Below are positions 13,714 through 20,915 of a stretch of 53,949 nucleotides of DNA, piece after piece. This stretch comes from an uncultured Geobacter sp. (lineage in GTDB: Bacteria > Myxococcota_A > UBA9160 > JADFDR01). The translations under genes and the position numbers were made by a program. Below the pieces are notes generated by a model that was given only the letters and a program-made list of their open reading frames with translations, had not been told where the DNA came from and ran no database searches. Where the stretch lies: contig CAYRID010000004.1 of assembly GCA_964424225.1 (NCBI GenBank), positions 1-53,949 on the forward strand, in the 5' to 3' direction. Each line of letters begins with the position of its first letter. Position 1 is the first letter of the stretch.

Positions 13714-14168
13714 GTCATGCAGAATACAAATTTCGGCATAACGCCATTTTTCGTCTTTTTCGAAACGTCAGTTTTTCAACCTAGACGTCAACTTTACGGC
13801 AATTTATTGGCATCTTTGCTCCATCAATTTGCAATGGGAAGGCAGTTCAGCGCCCAACACATTGTTCTAAAACTTTTTTTGAATTGAATAGTAGTTTTTG
13901 AAACGCTTCTTACAAAGCTTGGTTCCGCTTTCTGTGCTTGCTCGGCAGGGAAAAGGTTTTTGCGTGTTCAATCCACTTCAAAATGAAGCAAGAAACTCAC
14001 TGTGCGCGTTCGTTTTATACAATTGTTTCGACGGTGATTTCAGTTGCGGCATGCGCCTTGCAGCGTGCAACAATGCAGGTGCTCTCACCTGGAAGATGTA
14101 GGCAATAACGCTTGGCATCATCGTTCGAGGCGAGCACGAGCAGTCGGGCCACTCGACGGGAGGCAGCA

Positions 14169-16013
14169 ATGAGTGAATCGGATTCGCAGTCGGATGCAAA
14201 AGGTTTTGTGCGCGATGTTATGCGGCGAATTTCGACGACTACCGAGGGAGAGGCTTTGCAGTCGGATGCTGGTCGCGAACAGGCGGCGAGCGGCTTGTTG
14301 CGCGCGGAGATCGAAGGGATCCAAGAGGCCGTGCGCTTTTACGGCGGCGATTCCATCGAAGTGCGCCGCAAGTTGAATCGCATCCTTGCAGAAACAGAGT
14401 CAATTCGGCGCCGATACGAAATCGGTCGTGATCGACTGGTCGATGCCGAGCGTCAGAATGAAAAACTCGTCGCGGCATTGCACGAAGCGAAACAACAGAT
14501 CGAGGCCTTACGCGAAGAAGTCGACAAGCTTTGCACGCCGCCAAATACCTATGGAATTTTCGTGAAGGCGAATGACGACGCCACGGTTGAAATCATGGCC
14601 GACGGACGTCCGATGCGTGTGCACTTACATCCGAGTGTGAACGTGGAGGAATTGCGCGAGGGCCAATACGTCGTGCTCAATGAAGCCTTCAATGTGATCG
14701 AGCCGGGAACGTTTACGAAGCGCGGTGAGATTGCGAAGGTCGTCGACGTTTCGCTTGAGGATCGACGCGTGATCGTGGTGGGACATGCCGACGAAGAGAA
14801 AGTGCTTAGCCTCTCCAAGCCGCTCTTTGAAGAGAAAGTTCGCGTCGGCGATCACTTGCTCTACGATCCTCGTTCGCAATTCGCTTTCGAGAAAATGCCG
14901 AAGTCTGCCGTCGAAGAAGTGAACCTCGAAGAGGTGCCGGATGTTTCGTACGACGACATTGGTGGTTTGGGTGAACAAATTGAAGTGTTGCGCAATGCAA
15001 TCGAGTTGCCGTATCTACACCCGGAAGTGTTCCGTGAGTACAAGCTTTCGCCGCCCAAGGGTATTTTGCTCTACGGTCCGCCAGGCTGCGGCAAGACGAT
15101 GATTGCGAAGGCGGTGGCCAATGCACTTTCGAAGAGTATCGAAGAGCGCACGGGCAAGCCGACGCCGGCGTACTTCCTGAATGTGAAAGGTCCGGAGTTG
15201 CTCAACAAGTACGTCGGTGAGACCGAGCACAAACTGCGCGAGGTGTTTCGCAAGGCGCGCGAGAAGGCGAGCGAAGATGTTCCGGTCGTGATCTTCTTCG
15301 ATGAGATGGATTCACTCTTTCGCATGCGCGGATCGGGTGTGTCATCGGACATGGAAGCGACGGTGGTGGCGCAGTTTTTGTCGGAAATCGACGGTGTTGA
15401 ATCACTCAAAAATGTGATCGTGATTGGAGCGAGTAATCGCCAAGACTTGATTGATCCGGCGGTGCTTCGCCCTGGTCGCCTCGATTTGAAGGTGAAGGTA
15501 ATGCGCCCGGATGCGACGGCTGCGCGTGAAATTTTCATGAAGTATTTGACGACGGATCTTCCGTTTCATGCGTCGGCGTTGCAGAAATACGGCGGTGATC
15601 TTGAGAAGGTTGCCAAGGGCTTGGTAGAAGACACGATCGAAGTGATGTATGCCGAGGGTGAAGAGAATAAATTCCTTGAAGTCACCTACGCCAAGGGCGA
15701 GCGCGAGATCTTTTATTTCAAAGATTTTGCGAGTGGGGCCATGATTGAAAACATCGTGGCACGTGCAAAGAAGAAAGCAGTGCGACGCTTTATTGAGCAC
15801 GGCGAAGTGGGTGTGAAGTTGAGCGATTTGCTTGAATCCGTGCGCGAAGAGTTCAAAGAGAACGAAGATTTGCCGAACACGACGAATCCGGACGACTGGG
15901 CGCGGATCTCGGGCAAGAAGGGCGAGCGCATCATCAATGTGCGCACTTTGATGCAGAAGGTGAGCCGCAACGAGCGAAGCATCGAAAATATTTCGTCGGG
16001 TCAGTACCTCTAG
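14169..16013 (+). CDS. arc: Proteasome-associated AAA+ ATPase ARC/Mpa
   Basis: Coiled coil ending in TPP, OB domains, Walker A GPPGCGKT, LNVKGPELLNKYVGETE, Walker B IFFDEMD, SRH ASNRQDLIDPAVLRPGRLD, C-terminal proteasome-gating motif GQYL. SD GGGAGG before ATG 14169. Confidence 0.96.
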   Translation: MSESDSQSDAKGFVRDVMRRISTTTEGEALQSDAGREQAASGLLRAEIEGIQEAVRFYGGDSIEVRRKLNRILAETESIRRRYEIGRDRLVDAERQNEKLVAALHEAKQQIEALREEVDKLCTPPNTYGIFVKANDDATVEIMADGRPMRVHLHPSVNVEELREGQYVVLNEAFNVIEPGTFTKRGEIAKVVDVSLEDRRVIVVGHADEEKVLSLSKPLFEEKVRVGDHLLYDPRSQFAFEKMPKSAVEEVNLEEVPDVSYDDIGGLGEQIEVLRNAIELPYLHPEVFREYKLSPPKGILLYGPPGCGKTMIAKAVANALSKSIEERTGKPTPAYFLNVKGPELLNKYVGETEHKLREVFRKAREKASEDVPVVIFFDEMDSLFRMRGSGVSSDMEATVVAQFLSEIDGVESLKNVIVIGASNRQDLIDPAVLRPGRLDLKVKVMRPDATAAREIFMKYLTTDLPFHASALQKYGGDLEKVAKGLVEDTIEVMYAEGEENKFLEVTYAKGEREIFYFKDFASGAMIENIVARAKKKAVRRFIEHGEVGVKLSDLLESVREEFKENEDLPNTTNPDDWARISGKKGERIINVRTLMQKVSRNERSIENISSGQYL

Positions 16014-16045
16014 GAGGATCGCGGACGCGCAAAGCTGGAGTGGAA

Positions 16046-17530
16046 ATGTCGATTCCGAAAGTGATGGGAACAGAGATCGAATTTGGAATTACCGTCAAGA
16101 ACGATCGTGACTTTGATCCCATATCCAGTTGTGTGTTACTCGTAAATGCGTATCGCGAAGATCATATCGGAAAAATTCTCTGGGATTACGATCAAGAAGA
16201 CCCGCTGGTCGACGCGCGCGGCTTCCAAGTCGACGGCGAGAAGTATACGCCGAATCAGCAAGAGAATATTGCGCGCAACAAAACACTCGTGAACGGTGCG
16301 CGCTATTACGTCGATCACGCACATCCTGAATATTCTTGCCCGGAAGTGACGAACGCGCGCGATTTGGTGATCCATGAAAAAGCGGGTGAGCGCATTATCG
16401 AGCTAAGCCGTCGCGAAGCCAATCGCATGCTCGACCCCAATTCGCCAATTTTGATCTACAAGAACAACAGCGATCGCAAAGGCAATAGTTATGGATCGCA
16501 CGAGAACTATCTCGTCGATCGCAAAATTGCGTTTAAGCAAATCGTTGAACATCTCATGCCATTCTTTGTGTCGCGCCAAATTTTCGCCGGTGCAGGAAAG
16601 GTGGGTAGCGAAAATCGAGCGGAGCCTTGCGACTATCAAATTTCGCAACGTGCCGATTTTTTTGAAGTCGAAGTTGCGCTCGACACGATGGTGAAGCGAC
16701 CGATCATCAATACGCGTGACGAGCCGCATGCGGATCGTGAAAAATACCGTCGCTTGCATGTGATCGTGGGCGATTCGAATATGAGCGAGTACACGATTTA
16801 CCTACGCAATGGTGTGACGGCGTTGATTTTGTCGATGATTGAAGACGGTGCAATCAAGCGCGATCTCGCGCTGCGTGATCCAGTGCAGGCAATTCGTCGA
16901 ATTTCTCATGACCCAAGCTGCAAGCGCAAGGTATTGCTCGAGCGCGGCGTCGAACTTACAGCGGTTGAGATTCAGCAAGAATACTTCGAGCTTGCGCTTG
17001 CGTATGCAGCGTCGCACGAACTTGATGTTGTGACGCGCGATGTTTTGCAAAAATGGGGTGAAGTGCTTGAGGCGTTAGCGCGTGATCCAATGGAATTGAG
17101 CGCGAAGATTGATTGGGTCATCAAAAAAGCGATGATCGAAAGTTTTATGCAGAAAAAAAATCTCGATTGGGATTCTCCACAGGTGAGTTTGCTTGATCTG
17201 CAATATCACGATGTTCGCCCCGACAAGGGTTTATACTTTTTGCTTGAGCGCCAAGGGCGTGTTGAGCGCATCGTGACCGACGATGAAATCATGGCGGCAA
17301 TTCACAACGCACCGGAAGACACGCGTGCGTATTTTCGTGGTGAGTGCTTGAAGCGATACGGTTCGCACGTTTTTGGCGTAAACTGGGATTCGATTTCGTT
17401 TGGAGTCGGCGACGAGCCGATCAAACGTGTCATGATGGTGGAACCTTTGAAAGGCACCAAAGCGCATGTCGAAGAACTCTTTCGTTCTTCACCGAAAGTT
17501 TCAGATCTTGTAAAAAATCTGCGGGCGTAA
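16046..17530 (+). CDS. dop: Depupylase / deamidase Dop
   Basis: MGTEIEFG, Dop-loop WDYDQEDPLVDARGF, Dop-type YVDHAHPEYS, SYGSHENY, NTRDEPHAD, RLHVIVGD, EPLKGTKAHV. Confidence 0.92.
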   Translation: MSIPKVMGTEIEFGITVKNDRDFDPISSCVLLVNAYREDHIGKILWDYDQEDPLVDARGFQVDGEKYTPNQQENIARNKTLVNGARYYVDHAHPEYSCPEVTNARDLVIHEKAGERIIELSRREANRMLDPNSPILIYKNNSDRKGNSYGSHENYLVDRKIAFKQIVEHLMPFFVSRQIFAGAGKVGSENRAEPCDYQISQRADFFEVEVALDTMVKRPIINTRDEPHADREKYRRLHVIVGDSNMSEYTIYLRNGVTALILSMIEDGAIKRDLALRDPVQAIRRISHDPSCKRKVLLERGVELTAVEIQQEYFELALAYAASHELDVVTRDVLQKWGEVLEALARDPMELSAKIDWVIKKAMIESFMQKKNLDWDSPQVSLLDLQYHDVRPDKGLYFLLERQGRVERIVTDDEIMAAIHNAPEDTRAYFRGECLKRYGSHVFGVNWDSISFGVGDEPIKRVMMVEPLKGTKAHVEELFRSSPKVSDLVKNLRA

Positions 17531-17551
17531 TGCTCGGAGAGGAGAAAGACC

Positions 17552-17833
17552 ATGAAGTGGATCGAAAAAAAACCAACTCGTGAGGAAGTCACCGATTTGC
17601 GTTTTGGCACTTTGGGCATTGTGGCGGCGGCGGAAGGCGGACAAGAACAAAAGAAGCGCAGTGGCGGCGGCGAGGGCTCCGATGCTGACAAGAGTGACGG
17701 TGGGCAGAAGCTCAAAAAGAAAGGCGATGAACTCAAAGAAGAGATGGATGATCTTGTTAGTGAAATTGACGATTTGCTCGAAGAGAATGCCGAAGAGTTT
17801 GTCAAGAATTACGTGCAGCGCGGCGGGGAATAA
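17552..17833 (+). CDS. pup: Prokaryotic ubiquitin-like protein Pup (93 aa, C-terminal GGE)
   Basis: C-terminus EMDDLVSEIDDLLEENAEEFVKNYVQRGGE closely matches actinobacterial Pup (M. tuberculosis ...DEIDDVLEENAEDFVRAYVQKGGQ). Strong SD GGAGAGGAG; sits between dop and prcB. Confidence 0.93.
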   Translation: MKWIEKKPTREEVTDLRFGTLGIVAAAEGGQEQKKRSGGGEGSDADKSDGGQKLKKKGDELKEEMDDLVSEIDDLLEENAEEFVKNYVQRGGE

Positions 17834-17934
17834 CGAGGCGTTTTTAGTCAACACATTTTTGCGCTTAACATCAGAAAGTGTTGTCTGAAAAAATTAAGTA
17901 GACGAGTGAGCGATCAAAAGGGAAGGGAGAGGCG

Positions 17935-18732
17935 GTGTATTTCGATTTTGGGGGCAAGTACGCGGGTTCGAGTTTCTTTGAGCTTCTCGACCAAGATTTT
18001 CCGCATCTCAAAGTTGATTTTCAACGCTTGCTCAAGCAAAGCAGCGGCGAAATTTCTGTGCCGCACGGTACGACGGTACTTGGACTCAAATATCGCGAGG
18101 GTGTGCTCGTTGCCGGAGATCGCCTGGCGACCGAGGGACACCGCGTTGCGTCGCGCGATGTGCAAAAGGTTTACAGCACTGACGAATTTTCCTTGATGGC
18201 CATCGCGGGTGCGGCGGGCCCGTGTATCGAGATGGCGCGCTTGCTGCGTGTCGAGCTTGAGCATTATGAAAAGATCGAAGGTGCTCCGCTCGAGCTTGAC
18301 GGAAAAGCCAACAAACTTTCACAGATGATCCGCGCGAATTTACCGGCGGCGATGCAAGGCTTGGTCGTTGTGCCAATTTTTGCGGGCTATGACCAGCGAC
18401 GCGCGACGGGTCGTGTTTGGAAGTACGACATCACCGGCGGTCGTTATGAAGAAACCGAGTACGAGACTTCGGGTTCAGGTGGTTTGTTTGCCAAGGATTC
18501 GCTCAAGAAGTCGTACAAACCCGGTGCGACGCAAGAGGAAGCCATCGCGATGGCGATCGAAGCTTTAACCGATGCGGCCGATGATGATCGCGCTACCGGC
18601 GGTGTCGACTTGCAACGCGGTATTTATCCAATTTTGAAAACGTGCTCGGCGCAAGGTTGCAAAAATGTGTCGGAAGAAATGATTGCGCAGATTTATCGTG
18701 ATTTGATGAGTCGCCGCGCCGGAGGACGCTAA
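17935..18732 (+). CDS. prcB: 20S proteasome beta subunit (45-aa propeptide, catalytic Thr1 at 18070)
   Basis: Propeptide with GSSFFELL, cleavage site PHG|TTVLG, AGDRLATEG, IAGAAG, GSGGLFA, TGGVDLQRGIYP. Confidence 0.95.
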   Translation: MYFDFGGKYAGSSFFELLDQDFPHLKVDFQRLLKQSSGEISVPHGTTVLGLKYREGVLVAGDRLATEGHRVASRDVQKVYSTDEFSLMAIAGAAGPCIEMARLLRVELEHYEKIEGAPLELDGKANKLSQMIRANLPAAMQGLVVVPIFAGYDQRRATGRVWKYDITGGRYEETEYETSGSGGLFAKDSLKKSYKPGATQEEAIAMAIEALTDAADDDRATGGVDLQRGIYPILKTCSAQGCKNVSEEMIAQIYRDLMSRRAGGR

Positions 18733-19433
18733 TGTCGGTCCCCTTTTATGTTTCTCCCGAACAACTCATGGCCGACAAGGCCGAATATGCGCGCAAAGGC
18801 ATTGCGCGCGGCAAGTCGATCGTGGCTTTGGAGTACGCAGCAGGCATCGCGCTGGTTGCGGAAAACCGCTCGGCACATCTTTCGAAAATTGGAGAAATTT
18901 ACGATCGCTTGGCGTTCGCGGGCGTTGGCCGTTTTAGCGAGTTCGATCAGCTACGAAAAATCGGAGTCCGTTACGCCGACGTGAAAGGTTATGGCTATAG
19001 CCGTGAAGACGTGCGTGGCAAAGCGCTTGCGAATGCTTATTCGCAAGCGATTGGTGATGTGTTTACGCGTGAGATGAAGCCGCTCGAAGTGGAGATCGTC
19101 GTTGCGGAAGTTGGCACCGACGAGCTTGCTGGGCAGGAAGAAAATTCTTTGTATCGAATTCAGTTTGACGGAAGCATCGTTGACCACGACGGCTACTGCG
19201 TGATTGGCGGCAACGTCGAGAATATCGAGCAACACTTGCGTGCGAATTATCGCGAGCATCTCTCCCTTGGGGAGGCGATCAAAATGGCGAAGGCGGCGCT
19301 TGAGTGTGCGAGTGCAAATCATGAAGCGATCGCACCGCAACATCTCGAAATTTGTATTTTGGATCGCGAGCGTGCGGGGCGAAAGTTTCGCCGTCTGACG
19401 GCCGATGAGATAAGCAATATTCTGGGCTCCTGA
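18732..19433 (+). CDS. prcA: 20S proteasome alpha subunit
   Basis: MSVPFYVSPEQLMADKAEYARKGIARGKS, KIGEIYDR, YSREDVRG, KPLEVE, LDRER...RKFRRL; ATG overlaps the prcB stop (TAATG). Confidence 0.95.
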   Translation: MSVPFYVSPEQLMADKAEYARKGIARGKSIVALEYAAGIALVAENRSAHLSKIGEIYDRLAFAGVGRFSEFDQLRKIGVRYADVKGYGYSREDVRGKALANAYSQAIGDVFTREMKPLEVEIVVAEVGTDELAGQEENSLYRIQFDGSIVDHDGYCVIGGNVENIEQHLRANYREHLSLGEAIKMAKAALECASANHEAIAPQHLEICILDRERAGRKFRRLTADEISNILGS

Positions 19434-19508
19434 GGTGCACACCCGGCTGCGTAGTTTGGGTGCGCGTTGTTACCAAGCCCACAAATCAGGCCGCAAAGAA
19501 GAAAGACC

Positions 19509-20915
19509 GTGCAGAAGCGAATTTTCGGTATTGAAACAGAGTTCGGCATCATCTTTACGCCCGAAGGTCGCAAAACGCTTCCGGTCGAGAAGGCGATACG
19601 GTTTCTTTTCGAAAAGCTAATTACGACCGAACACTTCTTAAACGTGTTTCTTGAAAACGGAGCGCGTTTTTATCAAGACACCGGTTGCCATCCTGAGTAC
19701 GCGACACCCGAGTGCGCTTCTCCGCGTCAATTAATTGTGTATGACAAAGCCGGGGAACGAATTCTCGAAGATTTACAGGATTATGCGGAAGAAAAAATTC
19801 GCGAAGAGCGGATTCCAGGCAAGCTCTCCATTTTTAAGAACAATACGGATTTCGTTGGAAACAGTTACGGGTGTCACGAAAACTATCTCGTGGATCGTGA
19901 TGTCGATTTTTATTATCTCGCTGAACAATTGATTCCGTTTCTCGTGACACGTCAAATTTATAGTGGTGCAGGAAAGGTATTTCAGACACAAGAAGGTGTA
20001 CATTACTGTATCAGTCAGCGTGCGCAGCATGTGTATCAAAAAATCTCGGGCACAACGACGAACGATCGCTCGATCATCAATACGCGCGACGAGCCGCATG
20101 CCGATCGTGAAAAATATCGCCGCTTGCATGTAATCGTCGGAGATTCGAACATGAGCGAGTTTACGAATTTCCTGAAGGTTGCAGCCTGTACGGTCGTGTT
20201 GCAGATGATTGAAGACAACTTCATCAACAAAGACTTCACGCTGCGAAACCCCGTGAAGGCGATCAAGGACATTTCGTACGATACGACTTGCAAGCGCAAG
20301 CTTCGCCTCGATAACGGCAAGGAGTATTCGCCGCTCGACATTCAGTTTGAATATCTTGAGATGGCGCAAAAATACATTGACCAATATCCCGTGAGCGATG
20401 AATTGCGCGACGGCATTGCCAAGTGGCAGTACGTGATGGACTGCTTGGCGGATGATCCCAATAAACTCGATCGCGAGATCGATTGGGTGATTAAGCGCAA
20501 AATGATCGAACGTTTTCTTGATGCACAATCGGCGAGCTGGAGCGATCCGCGCTCGTTCATGCTTGATTTGCAGTATCACGATATTCGTTTGAACCGCGGG
20601 CTTTACTACTTGCTCGAACGTCGCGGTGCTGTTGAGCGCGTGCTCAATGACGAAGAGGTGCTCAAGGCAAAAACGGAACCGCCGCACAACACGCGTGCCA
20701 AGATGCGCGGAGAGTTCATTAAACTTGCACGCCAAAACAACATTCAATACGACCTCGATTGGTCGAACATTCGGCTTGGCAATCTGCTCAACGTGCGCGT
20801 GATTTGCAATAACCCGTTTGAAACGGACACCGAAAAAGTTGCAGAACTCGTGCGGACGATTCAAAAAACCAACTTGCGCAAGACCAGTCTCTCAAAATTG
20901 GTGATTCAGTCTTAG
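19509..20915 (+). CDS. pafA: Pup-protein ligase PafA
   Basis: KRIFGIETEFG, PafA-type NGARFYQDTGCHPEYATPEC, KNNTD...SYGCHENY, SQRAQH, NTRDEPHAD, TRAKMRGEFI. GTG start at 19509. Confidence 0.93.
   Translation: MQKRIFGIETEFGIIFTPEGRKTLPVEKAIRFLFEKLITTEHFLNVFLENGARFYQDTGCHPEYATPECASPRQLIVYDKAGERILEDLQDYAEEKIREERIPGKLSIFKNNTDFVGNSYGCHENYLVDRDVDFYYLAEQLIPFLVTRQIYSGAGKVFQTQEGVHYCISQRAQHVYQKISGTTTNDRSIINTRDEPHADREKYRRLHVIVGDSNMSEFTNFLKVAACTVVLQMIEDNFINKDFTLRNPVKAIKDISYDTTCKRKLRLDNGKEYSPLDIQFEYLEMAQKYIDQYPVSDELRDGIAKWQYVMDCLADDPNKLDREIDWVIKRKMIERFLDAQSASWSDPRSFMLDLQYHDIRLNRGLYYLLERRGAVERVLNDEEVLKAKTEPPHNTRAKMRGEFIKLARQNNIQYDLDWSNIRLGNLLNVRVICNNPFETDTEKVAELVRTIQKTNLRKTSLSKLVIQS

What the first reader, a model, noticed from the sequence alone, without database searches (positions are those of the whole stretch)
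17552..17833. Pup with an extra 24-27-residue N-terminal segment and a ligation-ready GGE end
Seen: a strong SD (GGAGAGGAG) supports ATG 17552, giving 93 aa. Pup-like sequence begins only at about AEGGQEQKKRSGGG; before it is MKWIEKKPTREEVTDLRFGTLGIV, with aromatic and hydrophobic residues unlike Pup's disordered N-terminus. Known: M. tuberculosis Pup is 64 aa and its free N-terminus is what the ATPase pore engages; GGE Pups need no deamidation, leaving Dop as a depupylase. Inference: the segment could be a regulatory pro-sequence, second binding motif or altered threading signal. An in-frame GTG at 17621 without an obvious SD could give a short isoform.
Basis: partly seen in the sequence, partly recalled or inferred. 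Interest (0 to 1): 0.62.

Follow-up and report, generated by a model that had tools for sequence, protein, structure and literature searches.

The report
Pup tag with conserved N-terminal leader
This is the real gene for the bacterial ubiquitin-like tag Pup in a marine Myxococcota genome; it carries about 25 extra, floppy N-terminal residues that are conserved in most relatives, repeatedly lost in others, and of untested function.

Summary
ORF 17552-17833 encodes a 93-aa Pup inside a complete arc-dop-pup-prcB-prcA-pafA operon. Pup homology covers residues 28-93 only, and the protein ends in GGE.

The extension is translated:
- ATG 17552 has the strong SD.
- 40 of 62 distinct extension-bearing ("long") orthologs have no start codon near the canonical Pup start.
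- Codon composition, in-frame indels and dN/dS of 0.13-0.24 all indicate a coding region under purifying selection.

The extension is not peculiar to this genome. About three quarters of sampled relatives in the same order have a 16-25-aa leader. So do three Entotheonella-type genomes. The leader has the same layout everywhere: an M-[RK]-x-[IVF] head, an acidic patch, then a hydrophobic cluster just before AA[ED].

Actinomycetota, Methylomirabilota and other phyla have the canonical 64-69-aa Pup. On a Dop tree the trait changes at least 7-11 times. Short forms arose by deletion.

The leader is predicted disordered. I found no co-varying feature in ARC, Dop, PafA or the 20S subunits.

My best guess (about 0.4) is a longer, stickier threading leader for the ARC pore. 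A cleaved pro-sequence, a docking motif and near-neutrality all remain open. The GGE ending is ordinary (47 E to 32 Q in the clade).

This is a new variant of a known kind, of moderate interest.

The parts
14112..16013 (+). ARC/Mpa proteasomal AAA ATPase. It ends in GQYL. The true start is probably ATG 14169.
   Evidence: TIGR03689 scores 732 bits. OB and AAA domains are present. All relatives begin at MSE.D...GFVRDVMRRIS.
16040..17530 (+). dop (depupylase/deamidase)
   Evidence: TIGR03688 scores 582 bits against a cut-off of 492. Pfam Pup_ligase matches.
17536..17544 (+). Shine-Dalgarno sequence GGAGAGGAG, 7 nt before the pup ATG
   Evidence: Read. Duplex with the anti-SD is -7.2 kcal/mol. 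It is conserved in 4 of 5 genus-level relatives.
17552..17833 (+). pup coding sequence, 93 codons plus stop
   Evidence: The identical protein is on record as P0001.
17552..17626 (+). N-terminal extension, residues 1-25 (MKWIEKKPTREEVTDLRFGTLGIVA), absent from canonical Pups
   Evidence: It lies outside the Pfam match. It aligns with the extensions of 61 other distinct long Pups. dN/dS is 0.13-0.24 with in-frame indels. pLDDT is below 50.
17552..17581 (+). Head of the extension, residues 1-10: M-K-W-I then a basic stretch
   Evidence: Across 168 long Pups, position 2 is K or R in 42% and positions 3-4 are hydrophobic in 44-46%. Synonymous changes occur at I4 and P8 among close relatives.
17582..17596 (+). 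Acidic patch, residues 11-15 (EEVTD)
   Evidence: Positions -9 to -7 before the junction are acidic in 27-35% of 168 long Pups. The recurrent form is N-A-D or D-A-D.
17597..17623 (+). Hydrophobic cluster, residues 16-24 (LRFGTLGIV), directly before AAAE
   Evidence: Positions -5 to -1 are 44-94% hydrophobic, and position -2 reaches 94%. The same G-I-V-x-x-A-E junction occurs in Entotheonella Pups.
17621..17623 (+). In-frame GTG (Val24), a possible minor internal start
   Evidence: The SD is weak, -2.4 kcal/mol. The GTG is invariant in 5 genus-level relatives, but GTG makes up 50% of Val codons here. Forty of 62 long orthologs have no start codon at this place.
17627..17830 (+). Canonical Pup body, residues 26-93: a conserved AAE..Q.QKK N-terminal box, a Gly/acidic linker, and the helix-forming C-terminal half
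   Evidence: Pfam matches 28-93. It aligns with M. tuberculosis Pup 2-64. AF2 predicts a helix at 47-89 with pLDDT 72-87. Residues 76-92 are invariant in 36 homologs.
17822..17830 (+). C-terminal Gly-Gly-Glu, the ligation-ready end
   Evidence: The clade has 47 GGE and 32 GGQ endings.
17935..18732 (+). prcB, proteasome beta subunit with a propeptide and an HG|TT processing site
   Evidence: Pfam Proteasome matches. Alignment.
18732..19433 (+). prcA, proteasome alpha subunit
   Evidence: Pfam Proteasome matches. The N-terminus MS.PFYVSPEQ is invariant in the clade.
19467..20915 (+). pafA, Pup ligase
   Evidence: TIGR03686 scores 545 bits, just under its cut-off of 551. Pfam Pup_ligase scores 500 bits.

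Best explanation
Shown (odds about 0.9): translation starts at ATG 17552 and yields a 93-aa Pup. Its first 25 residues are an intrinsically disordered leader specific to one clade.

The leader has a basic/hydrophobic head (M-K-W-I), an acidic patch, and a hydrophobic cluster (LRFGTLGIV). That cluster abuts the otherwise canonical Pup N-terminal box (AAE-GGQEQKK). The leader is shared by the pupylation operons of one class of Myxococcota and of Entotheonella. It is under purifying selection and has been deleted many times, each time leaving a canonical MA[ED].. Pup.

Inferred (odds about 0.4): the leader acts at the step where the ARC/Mpa ATPase engages Pup. In M. tuberculosis, Pup residues 21-51 dock as a helix on the ARC coiled coil. 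The free N-terminal 20 residues are the threader, and Met1 stops in the lower ATPase chamber about 35 A short of the 20S gate. An extra 25-28 residues is up to roughly 85-90 A if extended. That could let the N-terminus pass all the pore loops and reach the gate before any ATP-driven pulling. It would also offer the aromatic pore loops (K-Y-V-G here) a hydrophobic stretch to grip, instead of the Gly/acid-rich canonical leader. The expected effect is to modulate the rate or commitment of degradation, not ligation by PafA or removal by Dop, which use the C-terminal half of Pup.
For: Start and coding status:
- SD is -7.2 kcal/mol at ATG 17552 against -2.4 at GTG 17621.
- Across 62 distinct long orthologs the upstream ATG has a mean SD of -7.4.
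- 40 of those 62 have no ATG, GTG or TTG within 3 codons of the canonical position. The others have weak internal SDs, mean -2.1.
- In relatives of at least 60% GC, the extension has GC3 0.76 > GC1 0.64 > GC2 0.50.
- Among 5 genus-level relatives, indels are 3 and 9 nt and the SD and ATG are conserved. dN/dS is 0.13-0.24 in most pairs where dS could be computed.
- The gap from the dop stop to the pup start is about 20-30 nt in both long and short loci.
- There is one pup gene per genome.

Conservation:
- 42 of 55 relatives in the order are long.
- The motif statistics come from 168 sequences.
- Entotheonella shares the G-I-V-x-C-A-E-G-G junction.
- The Dop tree puts Entotheonella plus Myxococcota in one clade with 99% support and short-Pup Actinomycetota outside it.

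Disorder: pLDDT is below 50 for most of residues 1-43, and a helix is predicted at 47-89.

Geometry and the threader role of the Pup N-terminus come from PMC8755798. The pore-loop motif KYVG is invariant in all ARCs examined.
Against: Nothing here tests the mechanism.
- The leader has been lost at least 7-11 times, sometimes between very close relatives such as L161 and L162/L164. It is therefore dispensable.
- No position or domain in ARC, Dop, PrcB, PrcA or PafA tracks its presence.
- Sequence conservation is modest. An extension-only HMM gives just 14 bits on the window's own Pup.
- A threading role does not explain why the hydrophobic cluster sits exactly at the junction with the canonical N-terminus.
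Confidence: 0.4

Rival explanations
1. Pro-sequence. The leader is cut off by a cellular protease or by the 20S proteasome itself. The hydrophobic cluster serves as the recognition site, with P1 an aromatic or branched residue. Cleavage releases a Pup whose N-terminus (x-A-A-E-...) matches the canonical one, so Pup would be made as an inactive or differently routed precursor.
For: The conserved hydrophobic cluster lies immediately before the residues that align with the canonical start, and A-A follows it in nearly all sequences. Precise loss of the leader gives a working canonical Pup many times over. That is expected if the mature product is the same.
Against: No protease is linked to the operon. 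The head of the leader is also conserved (M-[RK]-x-[IVF]), which a disposable pro-peptide need not be. The residue before AA is variable (G, S, R, A, M). No N-terminal processing of Pup is known (my own knowledge).
Confidence: 0.15
2. Docking motif. The acidic patch plus hydrophobic cluster is a short linear motif that binds a partner other than the ARC pore. Candidates are the clade-specific basic N-terminal motif of ARC (GFVRDVMRRIS), the OB ring, the 20S alpha ring, or another AAA+ protease of this diderm host such as ClpX. This would add a second contact or an alternative route for pupylated proteins.
For: The acidic-then-hydrophobic layout in a disordered segment is typical of linear binding motifs. 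The ARC N-terminal motif occurs in Myxococcota and Entotheonella but not in Actinomycetota ARCs, the same clade-level distribution as the leader. From memory only, the head resembles the Met-basic-hydrophobic N-terminal signals described for ClpX.
Against: The ARC motif stays fully conserved in lineages that lost the leader. No operon protein co-varies with the leader. The artificial Dop-Pup co-fold left the leader at pLDDT about 30, although that model was poor overall.
Confidence: 0.2
3. Nearly neutral appendage. An upstream start was recruited once. The extra disordered residues are tolerated because the Pup N-terminus only needs to be flexible. Apparent motifs would reflect shared descent and mild constraints such as avoiding aggregation or keeping the SD and translational coupling with dop.
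For: Loss is frequent, even between close relatives. The middle of the leader is poorly conserved. There is no co-variation with operon proteins. The leader is disordered.
Against: dN/dS is 0.13-0.24, not near 1. The length stays within 16-25 residues. The hydrophobic cluster and head persist across two phyla whose Dop proteins are only about 52-54% identical. There is no significant RNA structure that could explain conservation at the nucleotide level, z = -0.69.
Confidence: 0.2
4. The start is mis-called, or there are two isoforms. The functional Pup would start at GTG 17621 (70 aa, MAAAEGGQEQ..., very like M. tuberculosis MAQEQTKR). The upstream ATG would be unused or would give only a minor product.
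For: The 70-aa product would look canonical. The GTG is invariant in 5 genus-level relatives. In 28 of 168 long Pups a Met sits at the canonical position. One locus with both starts (L079, internal SD -5.5) is sister to a short-type locus.
Against: The SD at the GTG is weak, -2.4, and too close to the codon. GTG is half of all Val codons here, so its invariance has about a 3-6% chance expectation. 40 of 62 long orthologs cannot start there. The region upstream of the GTG is under protein-level selection. A short-only start would leave a 90-nt dop-pup spacer, against about 25 nt in true short-type loci.
Confidence: 0.05

Closest known systems
Mycobacterium tuberculosis Pup (64 aa; PDB 3M9D, 7PX9)
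   Same: Same family: phmmer E = 9e-14, aligning residues 30-93 with 2-64. It shares the Q-E-Q-x-K-R N-terminal box, the Gly/acid linker, the helix-forming C-terminal half and the GG[EQ] end. The operon partners are the same: ARC/Mpa with GQYL, Dop, PrcBA and PafA.
   Different: The window's Pup has 28 more N-terminal residues, including a hydrophobic cluster. In M. tuberculosis the free N-terminus begins directly at the Q-E-Q box and serves as the threader (PMC8755798). M. tuberculosis Pup ends in GGQ; this one ends in GGE.
Short Pups of the same Myxococcota order (for example L022 MAESTQKQKPKRGG..., 66-69 aa)
   Same: The body is the same, including the invariant LEENAEEFVKNYVQRGG. The operon is the same and the ARC proteins are 70-74% identical.
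   Different: They lack the leader, which was removed by deletion. The dop-pup gap is 9-57 nt.
Entotheonella-type Pups (L064, L082, L085)
   Same: They carry a 17-18-aa leader ending in W-x-(A/G)-I-V-T-C-A-E-G-G, the same junction as G-I-V-A-A-A-E-G-G here. Their Dop is sister to the Myxococcota Dops.
   Different: The head differs, the Lys-rich box is replaced by Q-Q-Q-V-R-R, and the linker is Thr/Ser-rich.
Corynebacterium glutamicum-type PupE systems (own knowledge)
   Same: The Pup is encoded with a terminal Glu while Dop is kept as depupylase.
   Different: They have no N-terminal leader, and C. glutamicum lacks the 20S proteasome.
UBact, the Pup-like tag of several Gram-negative phyla (own knowledge; Lehmann et al. 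2017, not read here)
   Same: It is a Pup-related tag with proteasome and ligase genes outside Actinobacteria.
   Different: The window's protein is a bona fide Pup by Pfam and NCBIfam, not the divergent UBact family. I did not test UBact for N-terminal leaders.

Membership tests
Pup (PF05639 / TIGR03687) | Sequence match above the curated cut-offs | tested here: met
   PF05639 scores 65 bits against 27. TIGR03687 scores 52.9 against 41.45.
Pup (PF05639 / TIGR03687) | C-terminal Gly-Gly-Glu/Gln as the last residues | tested here: met
   The protein ends ...YVQRGGE followed by the stop.
Pup (PF05639 / TIGR03687) | Gene adjacent to a Dop/PafA-family ligase, and usually to proteasome genes | tested here: met
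   The order is arc-dop-pup-prcB-prcA-pafA.
Pup (PF05639 / TIGR03687) | Intrinsically disordered N-terminal half and a helix-forming C-terminal half | tested here: met
   The AF2 model has pLDDT below 50 for most of residues 1-43 and a helix at 47-89. This is a prediction only.
Pup (PF05639 / TIGR03687) | Isopeptide conjugation to substrate lysines and recognition by ARC/Mpa | not testable with these tools
   This needs biochemistry.
Canonical-length Pup (free N-terminus at the Q-E-Q/K box, about 64-69 aa) | The start codon lies directly before the A-[ED]-x-x-Q-K box | tested here: not met
   25 residues precede the box. 60 short Pups from other lineages start at the box.
Sec/lipoprotein signal peptide (considered for the FGTLGIVAAA stretch) | A short basic n-region followed by a hydrophobic core of at least 7-15 residues | tested here: not met
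   The n-region is 17 residues long with 5 acidic residues. In orthologs the hydrophobic run is only 3-5 residues and often holds Arg. This was judged by eye; no predictor was run.

The most novel reading that the evidence does not exclude
Pup in this clade is made as a precursor ('pro-Pup'). The conserved hydrophobic cluster would be a processing or gate-interaction site. Removal or insertion of the 25-residue leader would decide whether a pupylated protein is degraded or merely marked. That would give a bacterial tag a maturation or commitment step on its N-terminal side.
Probability: 0.15. Interest if true: 0.7.

Novelty: new variant of a known kind. Interest (0 to 1): 0.42.

Why it matters
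The N-terminus of Pup is the one part of the tag that the proteasomal ATPase must catch to start unfolding. All mechanistic work has used the 64-aa mycobacterial form.

A natural version with a conserved extra leader is found in about two thirds of the sampled Pup-bearing genomes of this Myxococcota class, and it has been repeatedly deleted in the rest. Matched long and short pairs therefore already exist for asking how leader length and composition set engagement, degradation rate or fate.

It also shows that Pup systems outside Actinobacteria are not simple copies. I found no paper that describes this leader, but my literature search was limited to open-access text.

Tried and rejected
1. 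Co-variation. ARC N-termini align end to end in long and short types. No alignment column in ARC, Dop, PrcB, PrcA or PafA separates the types; the best balanced accuracy was 0.81-0.89 and was dominated by one family. The PrcA N-terminus and the ARC pore loop are invariant. Power was low.

2. Co-folding. As a technical trick only, I read the dop stop TAA as Gln to obtain a Dop-linker-Pup chain, and folded it with an unpaired alignment. The leader stayed at pLDDT about 30. Pup formed one helix rather than the two expected on Dop, and the Dop C-domain was poorly modelled, so the result is uninformative. dop and pup share a frame in only 11 of 34 long loci, so natural read-through fusion is rejected.

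3. Portable module. An extension-only HMM found nothing above noise in the window's own genome.

4. RNA-level function. The fold z-score is -0.69. There is no promoter-like site inside dop-pup and no terminator.

5. Signal peptide. Rejected; see the membership test.

6. HbYX-type gate-opening motif. The cluster is internal, not C-terminal, and Tyr is not general. This was not pursued.

7. Literature. Four searches, found no description of the leader. Iyer et al. 2008 note only that Pups are 50-90 residues long.

8. RNA or read evidence for the start.

Full report
WHAT IS THERE

The region 14112-20915 (+) is a complete pupylation and proteasome operon:
- ARC/Mpa ATPase, TIGR03689 at 732 bits, with a GQYL tail.
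- Dop, TIGR03688 at 582 bits.
- Pup.
- PrcB and PrcA.
- PafA.

The pup ORF is 17552-17833, 93 codons. The dop stop TAA is at 17528. GGAGAGGAG lies at 17536-17544, 7 nt before the ATG.

Pfam Pup matches only residues 28-93, which are profile positions 3-69 of 69. Against solved M. tuberculosis Pup, window G30 aligns with A2. The protein has 25 residues more than the short Pups of its own order and 28 more than M. tuberculosis Pup. It ends in GGE.

WHOSE GENOME

Record titles of the nearest loci are marine and sediment 'Myxococcota bacterium' MAGs. A few are titled Spirochaetales but nest inside Myxococcota on the Dop tree.

Pup was found in 54 of 301 evenly drawn genomes of the phylum. These break down as:
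- 45 of 48 genomes in the window's own order.
- 9 of 10 genomes in one other family of the same class.
- None in any other class.

There is one pup gene per genome.

IS THE EXTENSION TRANSLATED?

Five independent lines say yes.

(i) Start signals. The SD duplex is -7.2 kcal/mol at ATG 17552, against -2.4 at the in-frame GTG 17621.

(ii) Orthologs. Among 62 distinct extension-bearing ("long") orthologs, the upstream ATG has a mean SD of -7.4. Forty have no ATG, GTG or TTG within three codons of the canonical position; the residues there are Tyr, Trp, Phe, Gly, Ser or Arg. The remainder have weak internal SDs, mean -2.1.

(iii) Spacing. The distance from the dop stop to the pup start is about 20-30 nt in both long-type and short-type Myxococcota loci. 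A start at 17621 would leave an atypical 90-nt spacer.

(iv) Composition. In relatives of at least 60% GC, the extension shows GC3 0.76 > GC1 0.64 > GC2 0.50. This ordering is the same as in the Pup body.

(v) Substitution pattern. Among five genus-level relatives recovered from metagenomes:
- The SD and ATG are conserved.
- The two indels are 3 and 9 nt.
- There are synonymous changes in conserved codons.
- dN/dS in the extension is 0.13-0.24 in most pairs where dS could be computed. It is 0.04-0.15 in the disordered middle and about 0 in the C-terminal helix.

The GTG of Val24 is invariant in those five relatives. However, GTG is half of all Val codons here, and the codon is absent in the next genus (L019). 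A minor short isoform cannot be excluded, but it is not a clade feature.

HOW WIDESPREAD, AND WHAT IS CONSERVED

Of 55 relatives in the order with a Pup, 42 are long and 13 short. In the other family of the class, 1 is long and 8 are short. Nearly all of the best 120 database homologs are 81-112 aa.

The leader is 16-25 residues long in 60 of 62 sequences. It has a common layout (168 distinct sequences):
- A head, M-[RK]-x-[IVF].
- A variable polar stretch ending in an acidic patch, often N-A-D or D-A-D.
- A hydrophobic cluster at positions -5 to -1, with position -2 hydrophobic in 94%. Typical forms are L-P-I-Y, F-G-V-A, L-R-F-V and S-I-W; here it is L-G-I-V.
- The near-invariant A-A-[ED], which aligns with the M-A-[ED] of short Pups.

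Three Entotheonella-type genomes carry a 17-18-aa leader ending W-x-[AG]-I-V-T-C-A-E-G-G. This is the same junction as in the window.

Pups of Actinomycetota, Methylomirabilota, Rokubacteria, Binatia, Nitrospirales and Gemmatimonadota in the same scan are 63-71 aa. They start directly at the box, as MAEQ.KK or VPQEQEQKK.

HISTORY

On a Dop tree, Actinomycetota (all short) lie outside a 99%-supported clade. That clade contains one Gemmatimonadota sequence (short, on a long branch), Entotheonella (long) and Myxococcota.

The long/short trait needs 8 changes on that tree. It needs 11 after adding the second family, and at least 7 are forced by well-supported branches. Long and short forms interleave even among close relatives: L161 is long and L162/L164 are short.

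Two facts bear on the direction of change. The junction motif is shared by all long forms, and short loci have lost the DNA rather than shifted the start. I therefore infer one gain in the ancestor of the Entotheonella plus Myxococcota operons, followed by many deletions.

Some long Pups keep a Met at the canonical position (28 of 168). One such locus is L079...LAVWASMAESQQKQK, with an internal SD of -5.5. It is sister to a short-type locus (L113), which makes it a plausible intermediate.

WHAT IT DOES

Only indirect evidence is available.
- AlphaFold2 with 36 homologs leaves most of residues 1-43 below pLDDT 50 and builds the usual helix at 47-89. The leader is therefore a disordered segment carrying a short linear motif.
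- Nothing in the operon tracks its presence. ARC proteins of both types align from their shared N-terminal motif to the GQYL end. No column in ARC, Dop, PrcB, PrcA or PafA separates the types. The ARC pore loop K-Y-V-G and the PrcA N-terminus are invariant.
- The region has no unusual RNA fold, z = -0.69, and no internal promoter-like site.
- An extension-only HMM finds no other protein in the genome with this leader.

Published structural work on M. tuberculosis (PMC8755798) shows the following:
- Pup residues 21-51 form a helix on the ARC coiled coil.
- The disordered N-terminus points into the pore and acts as the threader.
[quoted passage not shown] That leaves 48 rather than 20 residues on the pore side.

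My preferred reading (about 0.4) is a longer leader bearing a hydrophobic grip. Such a leader could span the whole ATPase channel and reach the gate before ATP-driven pulling, so it would tune engagement or commitment. It should not affect ligation or depupylation, which use the C-terminal half of Pup.

The alternatives are:
- A cleaved pro-sequence (0.15). The cluster's position exactly at the junction fits this best.
- A docking motif for another partner (0.2).
- A nearly neutral appendage (0.2). Frequent loss favours it; dN/dS and cross-phylum motif retention argue against it.
- A mis-called start (0.05).

COMPARISON AND NOVELTY

The protein is a true Pup by every testable criterion (see the membership test). 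It departs from the canonical form in one defined respect: the start is not at the N-terminal box.

Iyer et al. 2008 recorded that Pups range from 50 to 90 residues and occur in deltaproteobacteria (PMC2588565). Database annotations already call these proteins Pup. I found no paper describing the leader, its motif, its distribution or its repeated loss. That literature search covered open-access text only.

The GGE end with Dop retained is ordinary. The clade has 47 GGE and 32 GGQ endings.

I rate this a new variant of a known kind, with moderate interest (0.42). It is not a surprise in kind. It does sit on the mechanistically critical end of the tag, and it comes with natural long and short pairs for experiment.

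LIMITS
- There is no experimental evidence for the start or for processing.
The single-chain Dop-Pup workaround was uninformative.
- Trees were made by the quick method on one protein.
- Taxon names of the genome search handles are hidden, so 'order', 'family' and 'class' are the tool's codes.

Noticed in passing
window 14112-14240: The ARC ORF as listed starts at TTG 14112, but every relative begins at MSE(F/H)D...GRKGFVRDVMRRIS, so ATG 14169 is the likely start. This basic amphipathic N-terminal motif occurs in Myxococcota and Entotheonella ARCs (ERKGFVRDTMRKLS) but not in Actinomycetota ARCs. It stays intact in lineages that lost the Pup leader.
   Followed up: partly
window 17528-17554: The dop stop TAA and the pup ATG are in the same frame, 21 nt apart. 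This is not conserved: 11 of 34 long loci share the frame. Read-through fusion is therefore not a clade feature.
   Followed up: yes
whole genome / phylum sample: The Pup operon is confined to the window's class within the phylum. It was found in 54 of 301 genomes, none of them outside that class. This is consistent with one horizontal acquisition shared with Entotheonella.
   Followed up: partly
L016, L025, L026, L028, L038, L039, L079 and others: In one family, and a few other lineages, a Met is kept at the canonical Pup start right after the leader (...PLYMAAGEQ). This applies to 28 of 168 long Pups. Internal SDs are mostly weak. The arrangement could allow two isoforms, or it could be a step towards loss of the leader.
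   Followed up: partly
L058, L060, L061, L062, L107: These records are titled 'uncultured Spirochaetales/Spirochaetaceae bacterium', yet they carry Myxococcota-type operons. Those with a usable Dop sequence (L058, L060, L061) nest inside Myxococcota on the Dop tree. The bins are probably mislabelled.
   Followed up: no
window 18732-18765 (PrcA N-terminus) against Pup residues 16-28: The invariant PrcA N-terminus MS(M/V)PFYVSPEQ loosely resembles the commonest leader junction, L-P-I-Y-G-A-A-E-S. The window's own junction (LGIVAAAE) fits less well. This may be chance.
   Followed up: no
window 17865-17894: There is one sigma-70-like promoter match (TTAACA, 18 nt spacer, AAAAAT) in the 101-nt pup-prcB spacer. 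The shuffle expectation is 0.4, so the match is weak.
   Followed up: no
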